A stretch of 51,534 nt of DNA from an uncultured Candidatus Saccharibacteria bacterium (lineage in GTDB: Bacteria; Patescibacteriota; Saccharimonadia; Saccharimonadales; JAGQMS01): NCBI GenBank assembly GCA_964554485.1, contig CAZKOX010000001.1, forward strand, positions 75,363 to 126,896, in the 5' to 3' direction. A program made the position numbers and the translations under genes. Of this stretch, positions 12,052 to 18,848 are shown one piece after another (the stretch's first letter is position 1; the number at the start of each line of letters is the position of its first letter). Below the pieces are notes generated by a model. It was not told the origin of the DNA. It saw nothing but the letters and a program-made list of their open reading frames with translations, and did no database searches.

Positions 12052-12576
12052 ATGCGAATAATCTCTGGTAACTTAGGTGGTCGAAACTTTACTGCACCGC
12101 ATGGACACAAAACTCATCCAATGAGTGAAAAGATTCGGGGAGCTATCTTTAATGCACTCGGTGATATTGACGGTCTTACTTTTTTAGATGCCTTTGGTGG
12201 AACAGGAGCAATTGGTTTTGAAGCTCTTAGCCGCGGTGCAAAATCTGTTATTGCGGTGGATATAAGCAAGGAAGCCCACGACTCTATGCAAAAGAGTATT
12301 AAGATGCTAGGGGTAGGGAATAGTTTTAAGGCTATTCGCGCCAACGTTGCTAGCTGGTGCGAGAATAATCCAGATGCAAGGTTCGACATAGTGGTAGCCG
12401 ATCCGCCATATGATGACGTACCTGAAAACATACTTAACGTGTTAAGTAATTTTGTTAAACCTGGTGGGTTATATATATTGTCGCTTCCAAAGTCCTGCGA
12501 ATTTGTGCCAAAAAATCTAGAACTTCTATCAAAAAAGATTTACGACGAAGCCACGGTCAGCTTTTATCGAGTATAG
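12052..12576 (+). CDS. rsmD: 16S rRNA m2G966 methyltransferase RsmD family
   Basis: MRIISG..G, LDAFGGTGAIGFEALSRGA, DPPY. Confidence 0.9.
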   Translation: MRIISGNLGGRNFTAPHGHKTHPMSEKIRGAIFNALGDIDGLTFLDAFGGTGAIGFEALSRGAKSVIAVDISKEAHDSMQKSIKMLGVGNSFKAIRANVASWCENNPDARFDIVVADPPYDDVPENILNVLSNFVKPGGLYILSLPKSCEFVPKNLELLSKKIYDEATVSFYRV

Positions 12577-12657
12577 GGGTCGACATTTTTAAGCGTACGA
12601 AGTAAAATAGCAAGCGTCGTTTATCCGAGTAGAAGAATCATTTACAATCAAAGATAT

Positions 12658-12796
12658 GCGCGGGTGGCGAAATGTGAAGAGTGCCGGTGGCACTATGCAA
12701 GACCGGAGCCCTGGATTGCGAATGCAACCAAGGCGAGGTGGGGGCGCGACCGATTTGGTGGCTAGCCACCAAGTAGAATCGTGCCAGACGCACTAG
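12658..12796 (+). pseudogene. 5' fragment of tRNA-Leu interrupted in the D-loop by a 111-nt structured element (copy 1)
   Basis: 12658-12674 equals the first 17 nt of the tRNA and 12786-12796 (AGACGCACTAG) equals tRNA nt 20-30; the intervening 12675-12785 replaces GT. Confidence 0.85.
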
Positions 12797-12856
12797 TAAA
12801 AAGAAATAGCGGCTGAAGTTGACGGGTGAGTAGGTATAATTAACAATCAAGAATAT

Positions 12857-12940
12857 GCGCGGGTGGCGAAATGGTAGACGCACTAGCCTTAGGAGCTAGC
12901 GAGGCAACTCATGGAGGTTCAAGTCCTCTCCCGCGCACCA
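12857..12940 (+). tRNA. tRNA-Leu(TAG)
   Basis: Acceptor GCGCGGG/CCCGCGC; D-loop GG; anticodon arm CTAGC-CTTAGGA-GCTAG; long variable arm; T-arm GGAGG-TTCAAGT-CCTCT; encoded CCA. Confidence 0.98.
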
Positions 12941-12949
12941 AAACAATAT

Positions 12950-12978
12950 GCCGACCCTTGTGGTCGGCTTGTTGCTTT
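12950..12978 (+). terminator. Intrinsic terminator after tRNA-Leu
   Basis: GCCGACC-CTTGT-GGTCGGC followed by TTGTTGCTTT. Confidence 0.7.
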
Positions 12979-12986
12979 GTAGCCGC

Positions 12987-13113
12987 AGGACTTGAACCGT
13001 AGGTGAGATGAGCCGGTGGCTCATCGCAAGGCAGCTTTTCAGATTCAAAGCTATGTTTTGAGTTTGAAAAGTGCGGGGGCGCAGAATGTGCCCAAGTCCT
13101 CTCCCGCGCACCA
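12987..13113 (+). mobile_element. Structured tRNA-associated element (copy 2) ending in a 21-nt duplication of the tRNA 3' end
   Basis: 13093-13113 equals tRNA 12920-12940; 12987-12998 is antisense to the tRNA T-arm; three internal hairpins; motifs shared with copy 1. Confidence 0.75.
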
Positions 13114-13182
13114 ACCAGTCGACTTTTAAAACCAAGTCATTATTGACTAGGGTATGTGTAAGATGAGATATAATTGCACATA

Positions 13183-13665
13183 ATGATACGCCGCACTACT
13201 GCCAGGCCTAAGATAGGCTCAGTGGCGGATAGCGCTGAGCCTGGTAGCACAGACCTTAGCCCAGTCACTGACCTTGACTCCTTCCGGAGACGAGGCCTAG
13301 AGCCGCAGTATCCACCGGATGAGCTGCTTGAGTCGGTTAAGCCAGCTACAGCATGGATGACCTACTTCGTTATAGAGCTACCGACTGCATCTGCCATCCA
13401 CCCAGCACTCTACGATTGTGTCGAAGAACTTCTCGTCGGGCGCCGTCCAGTACTTGATTGCCAGACAGAATCACTTCGTGTTGCTTGCTGGCTAGAGTCC
13501 GAGACACAGGCGACGGCCAATGAGGAGGCCTACGCGGTTGGTCAAGCAGTTGTTGATCTTCTCGGATTATCGCCGGCCTCGATAGTCGAACACGTTCATC
13601 GCTTCTGGACTCGCGCCGACGGAATGATCGACGAAGAGCTGCCGGTTTTGATTCCGTCACTCTGA
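13183..13665 (+). CDS. Hypothetical protein, high GC, probably horizontally acquired
   Basis: ORF 13174-13665 with first ATG at 13183; about 60% GC in two hand-counted 60-nt lines, visibly above the flanking core genes. Confidence 0.6.
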   Translation: MIRRTTARPKIGSVADSAEPGSTDLSPVTDLDSFRRRGLEPQYPPDELLESVKPATAWMTYFVIELPTASAIHPALYDCVEELLVGRRPVLDCQTESLRVACWLESETQATANEEAYAVGQAVVDLLGLSPASIVEHVHRFWTRADGMIDEELPVLIPSL

Positions 13666-13891
13666 CTATTCGCGAACACCCACGGCAATAGAGACAACGG
13701 CAGCCATCAGACGACCATATTAGACTAGGATGGTCAGGTAGCTGCCAACGGCGAGAAGTAGTAAAATATCTTCGGCTGGGTCAGTGGTTGTTCAGACGCT
13801 GATCAAATGAACCGGAGAGAGGCCGGGCACCCAGCCGCCTTGTAAGATGACAGGAGTAAGGTATATAGGCTTGACCTTAATAAACCCATAC

Positions 13892-14338
13892 CTATAGACC
13901 CAAAGGATGAAGAAGAATTGCGCCAACCTTGATTGCCAGATCCTGACGAGCAAGGGCGTGAAGTATTCCACTTTCCATGTCGGACACGGTCAAGCCATGA
14001 ACATCCGTCAATTCTTCTACGGTCTGATCATATGTAGCTTGATAATCTGGTGATGAGAAAACATAAAGGGCACTCAAATCATGGGCGATCCGGCATCCAC
14101 GAACCCATGTGGCCAGATTTGGGCCAACAGATTCGGGGTCTGAGACATAAAGAAAGCCGGTAGCATCCTGTATGTCGGTCCCTGGGAAATCAAACCCTCT
14201 TTCTAGCAGATGTTCAAGAATGGGTTTGCCTTCACCCGCAGCAATCTTGTCGTACAGAAATTGTGTACAACCGCGCGGATTGTGTCGTTGGAATGATGCT
14301 TCGAATTTGCTCCGGGTAATTACAGCCATCAGTGTCAT
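13892..14338 (-). CDS. Hypothetical protein
   Basis: 148-aa ORF with plausible globular composition, divergent from the WhiB-like gene. Confidence 0.6.
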   Translation of the reverse strand: MTLMAVITRSKFEASFQRHNPRGCTQFLYDKIAAGEGKPILEHLLERGFDFPGTDIQDATGFLYVSDPESVGPNLATWVRGCRIAHDLSALYVFSSPDYQATYDQTVEELTDVHGLTVSDMESGILHALARQDLAIKVGAILLHPLGL

Positions 14339-14500
14339 TATAAATTGCTTACCCTCGTTTTATGTGTTGTGGAATGCTCTACGACTGTCTAGAGCGGGGT
14401 TATCATTGGCTTGACTGTTAATAAACCACTAAGAGACCCCACTTGCCCTTGTAAACCTATGAACATGTTTTATTTCGTTAACATATATAATATGAATATT

Positions 14501-14806
14501 ATGAGCTTAGATAGTCAGCCTGATGGCTTAGGAAATAACTGGTGGGCAAATTGGGCGGCCTGCGAGCAGCCTGGTTATGTAATTGATGAAAACTTCATTG
14601 TTTCTCCAGAAGATATACTAAGATCACCAATTGATACATATCGTAGACGGAAAGCTGCAAGAGAAATATGTAATTTGTGCCCGTTTTTTGAGGAATGTGA
14701 ACAAAATGCCAAAAGTTTTAAGGGTGAAGAACATGGTCAATACGGCAGAATATACGCCGGTAGGATATCAGTTTTACTACCCTTGGTCGGTGTTGTGCGG
14801 CTTTAG
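14501..14806 (+). CDS. WhiB-like (Wbl) Fe-S transcription regulator
   Basis: W-A-A-C21-x35-C57-x2-C60-x5-C66 plus GRIYAG turn (canonical G[VI]WGG); likely start ATG 14501 within ORF 14411-14806. Confidence 0.7.
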   Translation: MSLDSQPDGLGNNWWANWAACEQPGYVIDENFIVSPEDILRSPIDTYRRRKAAREICNLCPFFEECEQNAKSFKGEEHGQYGRIYAGRISVLLPLVGVVRL

Positions 14807-14840
14807 ATACTTATAAAGAATCATAGGTTCAACTCTAACA

Positions 14841-14868
14841 TTGACAATACTGTTAAAGCTTATATAAT
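14841..14868 (+). promoter_or_regulatory. sigma70 promoter of the His leader / original hisS
   Basis: TTGACA-16nt-TATAAT. Confidence 0.75.
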
Positions 14869-14878
14869 ACTAAGCGTA

Positions 14879-14932
14879 ATGACAACTAATATCACCAGTC
14901 ATACACATCTGTCGCTCCGGTTGATCGGTTAA
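14879..14932 (+). CDS. Putative attenuator leader peptide MTTNITSHTHLSLRLIG
   Basis: 17-codon ORF right after the promoter, with His codons at positions 8 and 10, ending in the antiterminator arm. Confidence 0.6.
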   Translation: MTTNITSHTHLSLRLIG

Positions 14933-14953
14933 CTTTCGATTTATTCATATCTT

Positions 14954-14983
14954 AACGCTCCGATCTACGGAGCGTTTTTCTTT
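14954..14983 (+). terminator. Attenuator terminator
   Basis: AACGCTCCG-ATCTA-CGGAGCGTT followed by TTTCTTT. Confidence 0.85.
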
Positions 14984-15013
14984 ACAAAACAAACTAAATT
15001 ACTAAGGATGAGA

Positions 15014-15125
15014 TAAAATGAAAGCAAATATGTCACAAATTACACAAAGCTACAAAGGAACAAGAGATTTTTACCCCGAAGATAAACGCCTCCAGAAATG
15101 GATGTTTGGCGTAATGCGGTCGGCT
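15014..15125 (+). repeat. 112-bp perfect direct repeat of the hisS 5' end (left copy)
   Basis: Base-by-base identical to 18737-18848. Confidence 0.95.
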
Positions 15126-15158
15126 TGTTGTTTTGTAGCCGCAGGACTTGAACCGTAG
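15018..15158 (+). pseudogene. Truncated hisS fragment (36 HisS codons plus 10 element-derived codons)
   Basis: Same start as hisS; frame runs into element copy 3 and stops at TAG 15156-15158. Confidence 0.85.
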
Positions 15159-15177
15159 GTGAGAAGAGCCGGCGGCT
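15118..15177 (+). repeat. Partial copy 3 of the tRNA terminator arm plus structured element
   Basis: 57/60 nt identical to 12962-13021. Confidence 0.92.
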
Positions 15178-15251: not shown

Positions 15252-18200
15252 ATGCAACAAAAAGTTATAAAAGCGATAAAAAACAAACTATTTCATTTGG
15301 CATTATTTGGTGCGCTACTGCTATTGGTACTGCTTAGCATTAATAATAAATCTGTGCATGCTACAACCTATAGGGACACTATCCTTGCCGAGCCTACGCT
15401 ACTGAACTATTGGCCGATGGATGAGGCTTCTGGTGCTACAAGCCTAAGTCCGGCAGCAGGTGGTACGGTAATTAATCTTACAGGGGCTACGGTAGGTTTA
15501 AGTGGTCAAGTCGACGGAACGGCAGTCTCGTTTAATGGCACAACAAACTTCGGTGTGACCGCATCAAATCTTGACTATACTTCGTACAGTAAACTTGTCG
15601 TTGAAGCACTAATCTTTGTTAGCAGTTACGATAACTCAATACGTATAACTTGGGAACTAAGTCCCTCGGCACTTTCTAATCAAGGAGCATTTTATTTTGC
15701 CCAGGATGTAGGCGGAACTAACAGCCCAACACTTAAGGGTGACGGGGGGTTTAATAACGCAGAATATACTAGACCATCTGCTGGGCAATGGCATCTTTTT
15801 ACGATGGTATACGACACAAGCCCTGGCTCCAATGAAGTAGAAGCATATATTGACGGCGACCTGCAGACTCCTACGAGTAGGCCATTTAACGTAAATAACA
15901 CAAATAACTTTGGAAACTTTGCCTTGTACTTAATGTCGCGAGGCGGTGGAAGTTTTTTTAGCGCTGGCAAGATGCAACACCTGGCAATATATAGTGACCT
16001 GAGTAGTAGCCAGATTGCATTGCATGCTCAAGCAGCGGGTTTGCGCGAACTTCTTCCTGGTACGCTTTCAGAAAGTTCTCGAACCACTACAAGTGCTACG
16101 GTCAGTTGGACTAGCGCAAGCAATGTGTTTAATCCACCTATTATCGCTCAACTACAGCGATCTGCCCATGGTGCGAACAGTTGGTCGAACGTTTCTGGTG
16201 CAACAAGTAGTCCGGCAGTAGACACAGGCTTGAGTGTAGATACAAGCTACGATTATCGAGTTGCTTATACGGACGCTACTGCAACAACTGTGTATTCAAA
16301 TACGCTCGTAGTTACGACCATGAAAGTCTATCCACCGTATACAGCAAATTCTGACACCGTAATTGTTGGTCCGTATGATACAGCCAGATCTGGTGCTGGC
16401 AATTGGAGCCCCGGAGCTGCCGGTTCTGTCCAGTGGCTTGTAGATGGTCATCAATATCGGGTCAGACAATCAGGAACAATCAATCGGCTTAGAATATATA
16501 CACCAAATAATACGAATCTCACTGGATTTTATCTACAAATATGGAGAAAAAATGGTACTACATACGATTTGGTCGGCCAAAGCAACAATATCGCTAGTAG
16601 TTTAGCAAATGCCAGCTTCTCAACTGTAGATTTATTAACCCCAATTTCGGGAGTTCAGATTGGCGATTTTTATGGGGCGCGTATGGAAACATCAGGTTCT
16701 GCTGCAAGTTTTTATGCATATAACCCTGGTAGCGTGGTTAGTAAATTTATCGTAAACCAAACTGCTTCGTTGACAGGGATGGATTGGGCAGCCCAATTTT
16801 CTTCAGCAACTGTCGTACCGATTGAAATGTATATGAGTCCTGCGCCACAAGTAGTGTTTATTGGTGACTCAATTTTCCAGGGCGTTCCTGGTAATTATAG
16901 TTTTTTGGATCCGACTGATACTACAAATTTAGCATCTTCGATCGAGGGTCAGTTTAGTGGTATAACGGGATATACCTATCAGAACATGGGTAAGGGAAGT
17001 GATACAACTGCGATTATAACCTCACGTTTTACCAATGACGTTATAAATTTGCACCCCAGAATCGTTGTTATGGAAGGTGGCGTGAATGATATATATGGTG
17101 GTGCGGTCACAAAGGCGCAATTTTTGGCTAACTGGACTACAAATCTTGCCGCCGCTCAAGCCAGCAGCAGCATTTCGAAAATATTGGTTTTAAAAATTTT
17201 GCCCTGGACTAATGGCACGAATGTACAGAATCAAACGAGAGATGATTGGAACGCTGCTTTAGAAACACTAGTTGCAAACTACTCTAAAGCTACAGTGGTG
17301 GACGCAAGCACATATGTAGGCCAATTTAGATCTGGGGGTGACGTAGGGAATCTATGGGATATACAAACAGCATTTAGCGCCGATGGCGTTCATTTTAACC
17401 AAACCGGACATGGCCAGATTGCTCAGGCGCTAGTGGATTCCATCGATACTACGATACCAACCATTACTAATATCTCTTCTAATAAGGTTAATGGTTATTA
17501 CAAAACAGGGGAAGTCATAGATATTGATATTACTTTTTCTGAAGCCGTAAGCTCGACTGGCGACGTGACAGTAACATTAGAAACTGGAGCAACCGACCGG
17601 ACTTGTACATTTACTGTCACTAGCAGCACAACCGGTACCTGCAACTATACTGTTCAAGCCGGGGATGCGTCAGATGACCTCACAGTTAGCTTAATTTCTG
17701 GTACTATCGCCGACGAAGTTGAAAACTCTATGTCCGTCTTTAGCCCTGTGACAAATCTTGCGGCGAATAAGACATTGATTATTGATACGAGAGCGCCAAC
17801 GATATCAGCCGTTACGCTAATATCATCCCCGACAAGTGATGTCACTCCAAGTTACGCCTTTACGACTGACGAGACTGGCACTGTCGGTTATGGCGGCGCT
17901 TGCAGCTCAACAACTACAACCGCGCTTGCTGGGGTTAACATCGTTACTTTTATATCATTAGCCGATGGAACATATACCAATTGTACGATTACAATTACCG
18001 ACACAGCTACAAATGTATCTAATACGCTAGCAGTAGCCAGCTTTACTATCGATACCTCTACGCCTGCATCAACATCAGCGCCTGCTCCTGTGACTGCAAC
18101 TTCTTCGACAATCGATGATATCCCTGAACCAGAAGTTGAGCAGGTAAGATATAACACAGTCACTTTCGCTAACTCTAGTAACGGTGCCGCTATCCAGCTT

Positions 18201-18686
18201 GAAACCCCTGAAGGCACTACAATAACTTGTTCTGCCTCAGTAGCTGAGAGTACGCTAAGTAACCAAGATTCTGAACATAGTTACCCCGTGGGACTAGTCG
18301 ACTTCTGCCTTACTGTACCTATCGGATCAACTAACACTATAAAACTAACATTTGTAACTAATCTTGCCCTAGATGACGTAATGGCGTTTAAATTCAGCAA
18401 CGAAGTCGGCACATATACAGAAGTGCGGAATGCAACTATTACAGAAACAATGTTAGGTAATCAGCGTGCCTTGTTGGTTGCTTACCAGGTAACAGATGGC
18501 GGCGAACTAGACGGCGACAGTACTGTAAACGGGACAATTCTTGATCCAATTGGGTTGGCTGCTTCTAATGATCCAGAGTCCAGTATCAGTACAACGACTC
18601 CACCGTATTTGTTGATTACGCTTAGCATAATTGGAGTTAGTGGGTTACTTATATTTATAGCAGCTAACATTAGGGCTAGGCGCTAG
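15252..18686 (+). CDS. Large surface protein: signal peptide, LamG/ConA-like, FN3, SGNH hydrolase, Ig-like repeats, choice-of-anchor-U-like domain, C-terminal TM
   Basis: Signal ending VHA; LLNYWPMDE..WHLFTMVYD..YIDG (LamG); FIGDSI, GGVND and DGVH (SGNH blocks); DGGELDGDSTVNGTILDP; hydrophobic tail plus RARR. Confidence 0.8.
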   Translation: MQQKVIKAIKNKLFHLALFGALLLLVLLSINNKSVHATTYRDTILAEPTLLNYWPMDEASGATSLSPAAGGTVINLTGATVGLSGQVDGTAVSFNGTTNFGVTASNLDYTSYSKLVVEALIFVSSYDNSIRITWELSPSALSNQGAFYFAQDVGGTNSPTLKGDGGFNNAEYTRPSAGQWHLFTMVYDTSPGSNEVEAYIDGDLQTPTSRPFNVNNTNNFGNFALYLMSRGGGSFFSAGKMQHLAIYSDLSSSQIALHAQAAGLRELLPGTLSESSRTTTSATVSWTSASNVFNPPIIAQLQRSAHGANSWSNVSGATSSPAVDTGLSVDTSYDYRVAYTDATATTVYSNTLVVTTMKVYPPYTANSDTVIVGPYDTARSGAGNWSPGAAGSVQWLVDGHQYRVRQSGTINRLRIYTPNNTNLTGFYLQIWRKNGTTYDLVGQSNNIASSLANASFSTVDLLTPISGVQIGDFYGARMETSGSAASFYAYNPGSVVSKFIVNQTASLTGMDWAAQFSSATVVPIEMYMSPAPQVVFIGDSIFQGVPGNYSFLDPTDTTNLASSIEGQFSGITGYTYQNMGKGSDTTAIITSRFTNDVINLHPRIVVMEGGVNDIYGGAVTKAQFLANWTTNLAAAQASSSISKILVLKILPWTNGTNVQNQTRDDWNAALETLVANYSKATVVDASTYVGQFRSGGDVGNLWDIQTAFSADGVHFNQTGHGQIAQALVDSIDTTIPTITNISSNKVNGYYKTGEVIDIDITFSEAVSSTGDVTVTLETGATDRTCTFTVTSSTTGTCNYTVQAGDASDDLTVSLISGTIADEVENSMSVFSPVTNLAANKTLIIDTRAPTISAVTLISSPTSDVTPSYAFTTDETGTVGYGGACSSTTTTALAGVNIVTFISLADGTYTNCTITITDTATNVSNTLAVASFTIDTSTPASTSAPAPVTATSSTIDDIPEPEVEQVRYNTVTFANSSNGAAIQLETPEGTTITCSASVAESTLSNQDSEHSYPVGLVDFCLTVPIGSTNTIKLTFVTNLALDDVMAFKFSNEVGTYTEVRNATITETMLGNQRALLVAYQVTDGGELDGDSTVNGTILDPIGLAASNDPESSISTTTPPYLLITLSIIGVSGLLIFIAANIRARR

Positions 18687-18736: not shown

Positions 18737-18848
18737 TAAAATGAAAGCAAATATGTCACAAATTACACAAAGCTACAAAGGAACAAGAGATTTTTACCCC
18801 GAAGATAAACGCCTCCAGAAATGGATGTTTGGCGTAATGCGGTCGGCT
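18737..18848 (+). repeat. 112-bp direct repeat (right copy, start of intact hisS)
   Basis: Identical to 15014-15125. Confidence 0.95.

What the first reader, a model, noticed from the sequence alone, without database searches (positions are those of the whole stretch)
12658..13113. Both element junctions map to the tRNA elbow (D-loop G18/G19 and T-loop C56)
Seen: copy 1 keeps the tRNA up to the first G of the D-loop GG, replaces the next GT and resumes at AGACGCACTAG. Copy 2 ends in GTGCC and resumes exactly at T-loop C56 (CAAGTCC...ACCA, 21 nt). Established: G18-U55 and G19-C56 form the D/T elbow and are adjacent only in the folded tRNA; tyrosine-integrase att sites usually leave one tRNA fragment per island. 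Inference: the same element end fused at two sequence-unrelated but spatially adjacent positions suggests structure-based target recognition, such as reverse splicing or template switching on folded tRNA, or cleavage of folded ssDNA.
Basis: partly seen in the sequence, partly recalled or inferred. Interest (0 to 1): 0.8.

Follow-up and report, generated by a model that had tools for sequence, protein, structure and literature searches.

The report
tRNA-loop-invading structured mobile element
The two junctions belong to an apparently undescribed family of about 90-115-base folded, non-coding insertion elements of Saccharibacteria that land almost only in the unpaired loops of spare tRNA gene fragments, by a mechanism for which no known enzyme is visible in the genome.

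Summary
Copy 1 (12675-12785) interrupts a 5' tRNA-Leu fragment between G18 and A21. Copy 2 (13003-13092) is followed by tRNA-Leu C56-A76.

Both are members of a three-hairpin element family, "E" (subtypes A and B):
- On 102 distinct copies, 96.7% of cells are paired and 31 of 34 pairs show compensatory changes.
- E has no Rfam match.
- E is present in 143 of 251 sampled Saccharimonadales genomes, with 12-22 matches in each of eight genomes searched sensitively.
- Copies 98% identical occur in different families at different tRNAs.

Of 130 mapped junctions, 89 lie in the T-loop, 18 in the D-loop, 12 at the 22-30 hinge, 6 in the variable loop, 4 in the anticodon loop and 1 at positions 7/8. E also occurs nested in E, and one copy sits alone in the 3' end of topA.

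E always follows a G. It replaces exactly two bases in 101 of 130 cases, mostly GT or TT. It always lies in sense orientation. It never sits in a helix or in a complete tRNA.

The predicted elbow enrichment is therefore real. The simpler reading is an exposed G-(G/T)-T on a folded single strand. G18G19U20 and G53T54T55 are, in standard tRNA numbering, the conserved unpaired G-G/T-T triplets.

This genome has no reverse transcriptase, Y1 transposase or TnpB, and its only tyrosine recombinase is a Xer type. The enzymology is unknown.

The parts
12637..12657 (+). Diverged duplicate of the tRNA-Leu upstream (promoter-proximal) flank.
   Evidence: 38-nt repeat D2, 12637-12674 versus 12836-12873, 89% identity.
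12658..12674 (+). 5' fragment of tRNA-Leu(UAG), bases 1-17, ending at G18.
   Evidence: 17/17 identical to 12857-12873.
12675..12785 (+). Element E, subtype A (copy 1), 111 nt. It takes the place of G19-U20 of the D-loop.
   Evidence: Sequence. Fold z = -3.9. Subtype-A relatives were aligned. The orthologous copy in genus g3 sits at the same site.
12786..12796 (+). Short inner 3' flank, tRNA-Leu bases 20-30 (A21 onward). The tRNA sequence then stops.
   Evidence: 11/11 identical to 12876-12886.
12857..12940 (+). Intact tRNA-Leu(UAG), the working gene.
   Evidence: ARAGORN. Rfam tRNA 58.6 bits.
12941..12978 (+). Terminator-like hairpin GCCGACC-CTTGT-GGTCGGC followed by a T-rich run.
   Evidence: Sequence. 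A like hairpin follows the tRNA at the empty locus of congener G002. Its function as a terminator is inferred.
12979..13002 (+). Antisense copy of the T-arm (AGGACTTGAACC) directly 5' of copy 2. It can pair with the CAAGTCCT that follows the element.
   Evidence: Inverted repeat I17, 12/12 complementary. The MFE fold clamps the element in this way. The same feature occurs in many downstream modules.
13003..13092 (+). Element E, subtype B (copy 2), 90 nt, with three hairpins P1-P3.
   Evidence: Covariance model R1, 88.9 bits at 13003-13093. Covariation.
13093..13113 (+). 3' fragment of tRNA-Leu, C56 to A76.
   Evidence: 21/21 identical to 12920-12940; 22/22 with the next A.
13115..15013 (.). 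Small island between the full downstream module and its truncated second copy. It holds three ORFs (13174-13665 +, 13892-14338 -, 14411-14806 +).
   Evidence: GC 0.48-0.54 over 13150-14349, falling to about 0.40 beyond, against about 0.43 genome-wide. ORFs. Only a weak WhiB-like hit, 23.5 bits against a cut-off of 23.6.
15118..15177 (+). Truncated second copy of the downstream module: the terminator 3' arm, the antisense T-arm and the first 19 nt of E. It is fused by GGTCGGCT microhomology to a duplicated hisS 5' end.
   Evidence: Repeat D1, 94% identity over 63 nt. 112-bp exact hisS duplication 15014-15125 = 18737-18848.

Best explanation
E is a non-coding, non-autonomous mobile element that also spreads between lineages. 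It has two subtypes: B of about 88 nt and A of about 90-115 nt. Its function depends on a three-hairpin fold of the sense strand.

How it sits in the target:
- It becomes inserted immediately 3' of a G and takes the place of the next two bases, usually GT or TT.
- The site lies in an unpaired stretch closed by a helix.
- In tRNA sequence the preferred sites are G53|T54T55|C56 or G52|G53T54|T55 in the T-loop, and G18|G19U20|A21 in the D-loop.
- From standard tRNA knowledge, these are the conserved unpaired G-G/T-T triplets of tRNA. They are also the bases that build the elbow, which is why both junctions in this window look elbow-directed.

Only insertions in dispensable sequence are found. Every tRNA-borne copy sits in a partial tRNA copy:
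- An upstream module has the form promoter + 5' part - E - about 10 nt.
- A downstream module has the form terminator - antisense T-arm - about 10 nt - E - 3' end.
- Each module lies beside the intact gene.
- The retained 10 nt are just enough to keep a T-stem closed around E.

Shown: the fold, the copy number, the mobility, the site spectrum, the orientation, the two-base replacement, and the absence from helices and from complete tRNAs.

Inferred:
- The target is read as folded single-stranded nucleic acid. I favour DNA of the sense strand over RNA.
- A trans-acting enzyme not recognised here performs the insertion.
- Spread between genomes is helped by DNA uptake and recombination through conserved tRNA flanks.
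For: Fold:
- On 102 distinct copies, 96.7% of cells are paired, against 26-47% when partners are slid.
- 31 of 34 pairs carry compensatory changes.
- A G.U pair is kept in 92 of 102 copies, so the sense strand is the folded one.

Family and spread:
- E occurs in 143 of 251 genomes of the order, with 12-22 matches per genome in eight genomes.
- A motif scan of 185,579 species genomes hit almost only Saccharibacteria MAGs.

Mobility:
- Congener G002 has an empty tRNA-Leu locus. G001 carries a subtype-B copy at positions 7/8 where this genome carries subtype A in the D-loop.
- A 105-nt E lies alone in topA here and is absent from topA of G001 and G002. It is present in three metagenome runs.
- E is found nested inside E.
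- Copies 98% identical occur in different families at tRNA-Pro and tRNA-Leu.

Sites:
- 130 junctions mapped: T-loop 89, D-loop 18 (10 of 23 subtype-A copies), hinge 22-30 12, variable loop 6, anticodon loop 4, positions 7/8 1.
- The minimal gap is exactly 2 nt in 101 of 130. The replaced bases are GT in 55, TT in 37 and CG in 6.
- 0 of 96 GT/TT insertions lie in helices, against 21% expected.
- 0 of 130 lie in a full-length tRNA.
- The T-stem halves flanking E still pair in 46 of 53 copies.
Against: - No enzyme is identified. This genome (96.9% complete) has no RT, no Y1 transposase and no TnpB, and its single tyrosine recombinase is a Xer type.
- A constant two-base target loss is not what the classic DNA transposases or site-specific recombinases leave.
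- The regular module architecture is not explained by simple insertion. It includes a direct repeat of the tRNA 3' end plus terminator, an antisense T-arm, and inner flanks of a tight 8-15 nt. Duplication and insertion may be coupled.
- The very strong conservation could also mean a cellular function.
- No empty and filled allele pair was caught within one population.
- Transcription could not be tested.
- 65 of 195 copies could not be mapped under the strict rule.
Confidence: 0.55

Rival explanations
1. RNA-level insertion. E RNA reverse-splices or is template-switched into folded tRNA at the elbow, and the chimera is copied into DNA and recombined beside the gene.
For: - Orientation is strictly sense, including in topA and in nested copies.
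- Sites are loops only.
- A conserved G.U pair is retained.
- From memory, a fixed 2-bp target loss is known for the R2 retrotransposon.
- RT is slightly commoner in E-bearing genomes (39 of 58 against 104 of 193; odds ratio 1.76, p = 0.096).
Against: - This genome has no RT although it carries a lineage-specific insertion.
- 104 of 143 E-bearing genomes lack RT, including genomes with 12-22 copies.
- Sites occur outside the elbow and outside tRNA.
- The duplicated flanks include promoter-proximal sequence, and downstream modules repeat beyond the terminator.
- Two bases are lost, so this is not a true intron.
Confidence: 0.12
2. Ordinary attachment-site scars. Integrase-type islands that target the tRNA T-loop left repeated tRNA ends, and E is simply the conserved end of such islands.
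For: - The 21-22-nt repeat from the T-loop to the 3' end is the classic shape of a tRNA att site (known from memory).
- Whole downstream modules flank cargo: a 1.08-kb insert in G145 and the 13115-15013 island here.
- Modules can be iterated in tandem.
Against: - E alone is inserted in topA and inside other E copies.
- Insertions also occur in the D-loop, hinge, variable loop and anticodon loop, with 5' fragments upstream.
- A T-stem half is kept on the island side of E.
- No integrase lies in the modules or islands. The only tyrosine recombinase of the genome is a Xer type.
- No true E match in viral contigs: one motif scan gave no hits, and the five hits of a looser scan were rejected by the covariance model.
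Confidence: 0.12
3. Domesticated RNA module. E together with its tRNA-derived arms is a functional RNA kept by selection beside tRNA genes, for example in processing, decoy or regulatory roles, and is not a selfish element.
For: - Covariation is extreme and bit scores are near 100 across more than 60 families.
- The flanks stay identical to the neighbouring tRNA even in another genus whose acceptor stem differs.
- A hairpin 5' of E shows compensatory changes relative to the real tRNA.
- Inner flanks are just long enough to close the T-stem.
Against: - The modules are present or absent, and differ, among species of one genus.
- 108 of 251 genomes have none.
- Insertions disrupt a reading frame and other E copies.
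- Near-identical copies sit at unrelated tRNAs in different families.
Confidence: 0.1
4. No dedicated enzyme. E spreads by DNA uptake plus short-homology recombination or gene conversion between T-arms, or by replication template switching. The loop preference only reflects the conserved T-arm homology that travels with E.
For: - T-arm halves accompany nearly every copy.
- The P3 stem of E (GGGGTCGCGGAAC) resembles a T-arm and is itself a target.
- A microhomology junction (GGTCGGCT) is visible at 15118.
- A module's two terminator copies differ, as expected if one came from a donor genome.
- No mobility enzyme of the families tested (RT, Y1 transposase, TnpB) is found.
Against: - The D-loop, hinge, variable-loop, anticodon-loop and topA sites share no homology with T-arms beyond G-N-N.
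- The boundaries of E and the two-base replacement are too constant for illegitimate events.
Confidence: 0.1

Closest known systems
Small structured non-autonomous repeats: Rickettsia palindromic elements, REP/REPIN, Correia and other MITE-like elements.
   Same: They are short, non-coding, multi-copy and folded. They encode no transposase and can land inside genes, including in frame. Other agents reported further such families in this same genome.
   Different: - E targets tRNA loops.
- E inserts in one orientation only.
- E replaces two target bases and makes no target duplication.
- E has three hairpins and no terminal inverted repeats.
- The genome has no RAYT/Y1 enzyme.
Non-canonical archaeal tRNA introns (bulge-helix-bulge introns at D-loop and T-loop positions, proposed to transpose in Thermoproteales). 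Recalled from memory.
   Same: They are insertions of tens of bases at many tRNA positions, including the D- and T-loops.
   Different: - Those introns sit in working genes and are removed by the splicing endonuclease.
- Here the organism is a bacterium and the host copies are truncated (0 of 130 complete).
- Two bases are missing.
- No bulge-helix-bulge motif is evident on reading the junction sequences.
Elements that recognise hairpins rather than sequence: group IIC introns at terminator stems, IS1397 and IS110-family insertions in REP loops, and integron attC sites. The attC sites are folded single strands of 57-141 nt with crossover after G in G|TT or GWT secondary sites. Recalled from memory.
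   Same: - The target choice depends on structure and strand.
- For attC, the size range, the covariation and the G|TT-like crossover point are strikingly similar.
   Different: - Those systems encode or need an RT, a DEDD transposase or IntI, and none is found here.
- E is a three-helix junction, not one imperfect hairpin.
- Integron recombination loses no bases.
tRNA-targeting tyrosine-integrase islands with a T-loop crossover.
   Same: The tRNA 3' end is repeated from the T-loop onward, and islands lie between the repeats.
   Different: See the second rival explanation: E occurs alone, in other loops, upstream of genes, and without an integrase.
R2-type target-primed retrotransposition. Recalled from memory.
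   Same: The insertion is site-specific, has a fixed 2-bp target deletion, and is co-oriented with the host RNA gene.
   Different: It needs an RT-endonuclease, which is absent here.

Membership tests
Any described RNA family (Rfam 15) | A covariance-model match at or near the gathering score. | tested here: not met
   Only tRNA is found in the window. At E <= 10 over 12500-13300, only a chance-level rpfG hit of 13.6 bits overlaps E. In seven further E-bearing loci, only tRNAs matched.
Self-splicing or enzyme-spliced tRNA intron | It sits in a complete gene, and its removal restores the tRNA. | tested here: not met
   0 of 130 copies are flanked by both complete tRNA parts. Two tRNA bases are missing in 101 of 130.
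Self-splicing or enzyme-spliced tRNA intron | A group I or group II core, or a bulge-helix-bulge motif. | tested here: not met
   E is 88-115 nt with three simple hairpins, and no Rfam intron model matches. The absence of a bulge-helix-bulge motif was judged by eye only.
IS200/IS605-derived or REP-type element (Y1 HUH transposase) | A Y1 transposase or RAYT in the genome, with subterminal hairpins and a fixed tetranucleotide target. | tested here: not met
   PF01797 is absent and the TnpB zinc-ribbon domain PF07282 is absent. The target is G|NN with two bases lost.
Integrase attachment-site remnant | A direct repeat of the tRNA 3' end bounds an element that encodes, or once encoded, an integrase. 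| tested here: inconclusive
   The repeat is present and islands lie between modules. No integrase is present, and E also occurs without any tRNA repeat.
Retroelement (SINE-like or R2-like) | A reverse transcriptase is available in the host. | tested here: not met
   PF00078 is absent from this genome and from 104 of 143 E-bearing genomes.
MITE | Terminal inverted repeats and a target-site duplication. | tested here: not met
   The ends are GTGAGAA... and ...GTGAC, which are direct rather than inverted. The target loses two bases.
Integron attC-like site | A single imperfect hairpin with R''/R' core sites, and an IntI integrase. | tested here: not met
   E has a three-helix fold. The only tyrosine recombinase scores as XerC/D (260 bits) and lies far below the integron-integrase cut-off (132 against 265 bits).

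The most novel reading that the evidence does not exclude
E reveals a new insertion chemistry. In this reading, a folded single strand (E) is joined into exposed G-(G/T)-T triplets of other folded single strands (tRNA-gene loops, E itself, mRNA-like DNA) with excision of two bases. The reaction would be carried out by a housekeeping or still unknown Saccharibacteria enzyme, or by E itself, without a transposase, integrase or reverse transcriptase of any known family. The partial tRNA duplication would be an obligatory product of the reaction.
Probability: 0.2. Interest if true: 0.9.

Novelty: new variant of a known kind. Interest (0 to 1): 0.7.

Why it matters
- Saccharibacteria have some of the smallest free-standing bacterial genomes, yet many carry a dozen or more copies of this element. 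About half of the tRNA genes in this genome are accompanied by partial tRNA copies that host E or a second insert family.
- If the target is indeed an exposed G-(G/T)-T in a folded single strand, E is a natural probe of when tRNA genes are single-stranded and folded in vivo.
- E would also be a case of mobility without any recognised mobility enzyme.
- Practically, E and its tRNA fragments coincide with contig ends: many copies lie 130-220 nt from one. They probably break assemblies, confuse tRNA and island prediction in genomes of this group, and offer conserved landing pads for genetic tools in the transformable cultured strains.

Tried and rejected
- Rfam at gathering and at permissive thresholds gave nothing for E.
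- tmRNA, SRP RNA, T-box and known small self-cleaving ribozymes were rejected from the sequence and the lack of Rfam hits.
- TnpB/IscB-type guide RNA (a scaffold followed by a 21-nt tRNA "guide") was rejected. There is no TnpB, and upstream-type copies have only about 10-nt 3' flanks.
- Viral contigs: two motif scans gave five hits, and none matched the covariance model.
- Metatranscriptomes holding 30% of the sampled words covered only the conserved tRNA parts of other organisms.
- Metagenome contigs from four runs showed the same arrangement and no alternative joints. For topA::E no empty allele was seen.
- Literature: four full-text searches found no description. A paper on rRNA insertions in these bacteria has no tRNA case.
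- My first junction map over-assigned 3' junctions, because the intact downstream tRNA could be matched. It was redone with a limit on element length.
- A simple paired-versus-unpaired test by the first replaced base was uninformative. One T-loop register replaces G53, the closing base pair of the T-stem. The helix-versus-loop test on motif availability was used instead.
- A test for inner flanks imported from another tRNA type was inconclusive.

Full report
**Observation.** The window holds one intact tRNA-Leu(UAG) at 12857-12940.
- Its first 17 bases recur at 12658-12674, together with a diverged copy of about 21 nt of its upstream flank.
- Bases 20-30 recur at 12786-12796, and its last 21 bases recur at 13093-13113.
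- Between the first two fragments lie 111 nt where the tRNA has GT.
- In front of the last fragment lies a related 90-nt sequence.
- The two inserts share the layout GTGA(A/G)A, then hairpin GCC-GGTG-GGC, then (U/C)GCAAG, then a variable hairpin, then GGGGGCGC...GTGCC. Their stem differences are compensatory, and both fold far better than shuffles.
The 5' side of copy 2 abuts an antisense T-arm copy rather than tRNA sense sequence.

**What the inserts are.** Relatives of the same order carry the same element ("E") beside tRNAs of many specificities (Pro, Glu, Gln, Trp, Lys, Arg, Val, Met, His, Ala, Gly, Ile).
- I built a covariance model from eight subtype-B copies. It finds E in 143 of 251 sampled genomes of the order, with bit scores of 90-104 across dozens of families.
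- Sensitive searches give 12-22 matches in each of eight genomes.
- This genome has at least eight copies, seven beside a tRNA gene and one in topA.
- On 102 distinct copies the three-hairpin structure is paired in 96.7% of cells, against 26-47% when partners are slid. 31 of 34 pairs show compensatory changes. One G.U pair is kept in 92 copies, which means the tRNA-sense strand is the folded one.
- Subtype A (copy 1) is the same scaffold with a different second arm and an extra hairpin in the loop of the third.
- Rfam has no match.
- A motif scan of one genome per prokaryotic species hit almost only Saccharibacteria MAGs. Four hits in MAGs labelled otherwise are true E copies, through mis-binning or a wider range.

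**E is mobile.**
- A congener (G002) has the bare locus: rsmD, promoter, tRNA-Leu, terminator. Another congener (G001) has a subtype-B copy at tRNA position 7/8 of the upstream fragment where this genome has subtype A in the D-loop. A different genus (G004) has this genome's arrangement, with flanks matching its own, different, acceptor stem.
- A 105-nt subtype-A copy lies alone, in sense, in the lysine-rich 3' end of topA in this genome, but not in topA of G001 or G002. The reading frame shows that two bases, or 3n+2, are missing at the site. The insertion is present in three metagenome runs.
- E is found nested inside the third stem of other E copies.
- Copies 98% identical occur in different families, one at tRNA-Pro and one at tRNA-Leu(CAG). 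Nearest neighbours are mostly in other genomes and at other tRNAs.

**Where it lands.** I mapped 195 unique copies (33 of subtype A, 162 of subtype B) against 253 distinct tRNAs, requiring both flanks to match one tRNA and the insert to have the length of E.
- 130 copies were resolved.
- T-loop: 89, in two registers, 52|55 (37 copies) and 53|56 (36 copies).
- D-loop 18|21: 18, including 10 of the 23 resolved subtype-A copies.
- The 22-30 hinge: 12. Variable loop: 6. Anticodon loop, 3' side: 4. Position 7/8: 1.
- The base before TGAGAA is G in every copy examined.
- The flank match cannot be extended closer than two bases in 101 of 130 copies.
- The replaced bases are GT (55), TT (37) and CG (6).
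- All are in sense orientation. Among the unresolved copies, none has antisense tRNA sequence on both flanks.
- G|(G/T)T motifs inside true helices make up 272 of 1272 such motifs in these tRNAs, yet host 0 of 96 such insertions (p about 9e-11).

The two sites are not unrelated in sequence, however. Here they are ATG|GT|AGA and AGG|TT|CAA. The elbow is also not the only target.

**The hosts are never working genes.** Of the 130 mapped copies, none has both a complete 5' and a complete 3' tRNA part. 41 have only the 5' part, 44 only the 3' part and 45 neither.
- Upstream modules read: promoter, tRNA 5' part, E, about 9-18 nt, spacer, intact tRNA.
- Downstream modules read: intact tRNA, terminator, antisense T-arm, about 8-15 nt, E, tRNA 55/56-76. 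This is often followed by a second copy of the terminator.
- The short inner flank is what is needed to keep a T-stem closed around E. The two halves pair in 46 of 53 copies.
- Whole downstream modules can bracket cargo: a 1.08-kb insert in G145, and here the 13115-15013 island, followed by a truncated second module at 15118-15177.

**Enzymes.** This genome (96.9% complete) has no reverse transcriptase, no Y1 transposase and no TnpB domain. Its single tyrosine recombinase is a Xer type. Across the order RT is present in 58 of 251 genomes and correlates only weakly with E. The counts are 39 RT+E+, 19 RT+E-, 104 RT-E+ and 89 RT-E-, giving p = 0.096.

**Interpretation.** The best-supported reading is a selfish, structured, non-autonomous insertion element.
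- Its target is an exposed G-N-N, preferably G-(G/T)-T, in a loop or hinge of a folded single strand.
- The elbow pattern follows because, from established tRNA knowledge, G18G19U20 and G53T54(psi)55 are the conserved unpaired triplets of that kind.
- I favour single-stranded DNA of the sense strand over RNA because RT is lacking, but this is inference.
- The constant two-base loss, the sense-only orientation and the coupled partial duplications are not explained by any family I could test. The mechanism is therefore open.
- The rivals each account for part of the data and are contradicted by other parts. They are RNA-level retro-insertion, integrase scars, a domesticated RNA module, and enzyme-free recombination. 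Details are in their sections.

**Novelty.** I found no description in Rfam or in four literature searches. Other agents reported further small structured repeat families in this genome, and tRNA-Ser 3' ends with split T-arms. I confirmed the split T-arms and found them to belong to a second insert family. I file E as a new variant of the small structured mobile repeats, with an unusual loop-specific target and unknown chemistry.

Noticed in passing
genome.fa (G000): C5 downstream of 23193 (tRNA-Val GAC) and of 28412 (Asp); C8 downstream of 27751 (Met); C9 downstream of 19567 (Asn, three tandem copies); C19 downstream of 7855 (Lys UUU); C2 downstream of 46636 (Ser CGA) and of 48225 (Ser UGA); C18 downstream of 7757 (Glu UUC): A second insert family, "F" (GTC, one long hairpin, GTGCA; 23-60 nt), sits in the T-loop of downstream tRNA 3' fragments. 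It lies after TTCG (position 57), again right after a G. A plain 20-nt hairpin occupies the same place at tRNA-Ser(CGA). About half of the tRNA genes of this genome have such partial copies.
   Followed up: partly
window 15014-15125 and 18737-18848: An exact 112-bp duplication of the hisS start. The first copy breaks at GGTCGGCT, a microhomology with the 3' arm of the tRNA-Leu terminator, and runs into a truncated downstream module. A 1144-aa surface-protein gene (15252-18686) lies between this and the intact hisS.
   Followed up: partly
window 13174-14806: Three small ORFs lie in a stretch that is GC-richer over 13150-14349 (0.48-0.54) than the genome (about 0.43). Two have no Pfam match. The third (131 aa) is weakly WhiB-like, 23.5 bits against a cut-off of 23.6.
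   Followed up: partly
genome.fa C3:37868-37972 (minus strand): Subtype-A E is inserted in the 3' end of topA. It replaces the last 30 or so residues with about 20 element-encoded ones. It is absent from two congeners and present in three metagenome runs.
   Followed up: yes
L102 (G002:C11) 522-607: E follows a duplicated 5' arm (ACAAAGAACCTCCAGAG) of a conserved non-tRNA hairpin. The intact copy of that hairpin lies 63 nt downstream. This is the same partial-duplication pattern as at tRNAs. The hairpin has no Rfam match.
   Followed up: partly
L119, L130, L133, L185: True E copies (88-94 bits) lie on contigs of MAGs labelled Nevskiaceae, Parcubacteria, Calothrix and Woesebacteria. This is probably mis-binning or mislabelling, possibly a wider host range.
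   Followed up: no
genome.fa C1:43163-43660 (about 31 kb before the window): ARAGORN calls a tRNA of undetermined type and a "tRNA-SeC(TCA)" next to tRNA-Val.
   Followed up: no
table, many genomes: Many E copies lie 130-220 nt from a contig end. E and its tRNA fragments therefore probably break short-read assemblies of these genomes.
   Followed up: no
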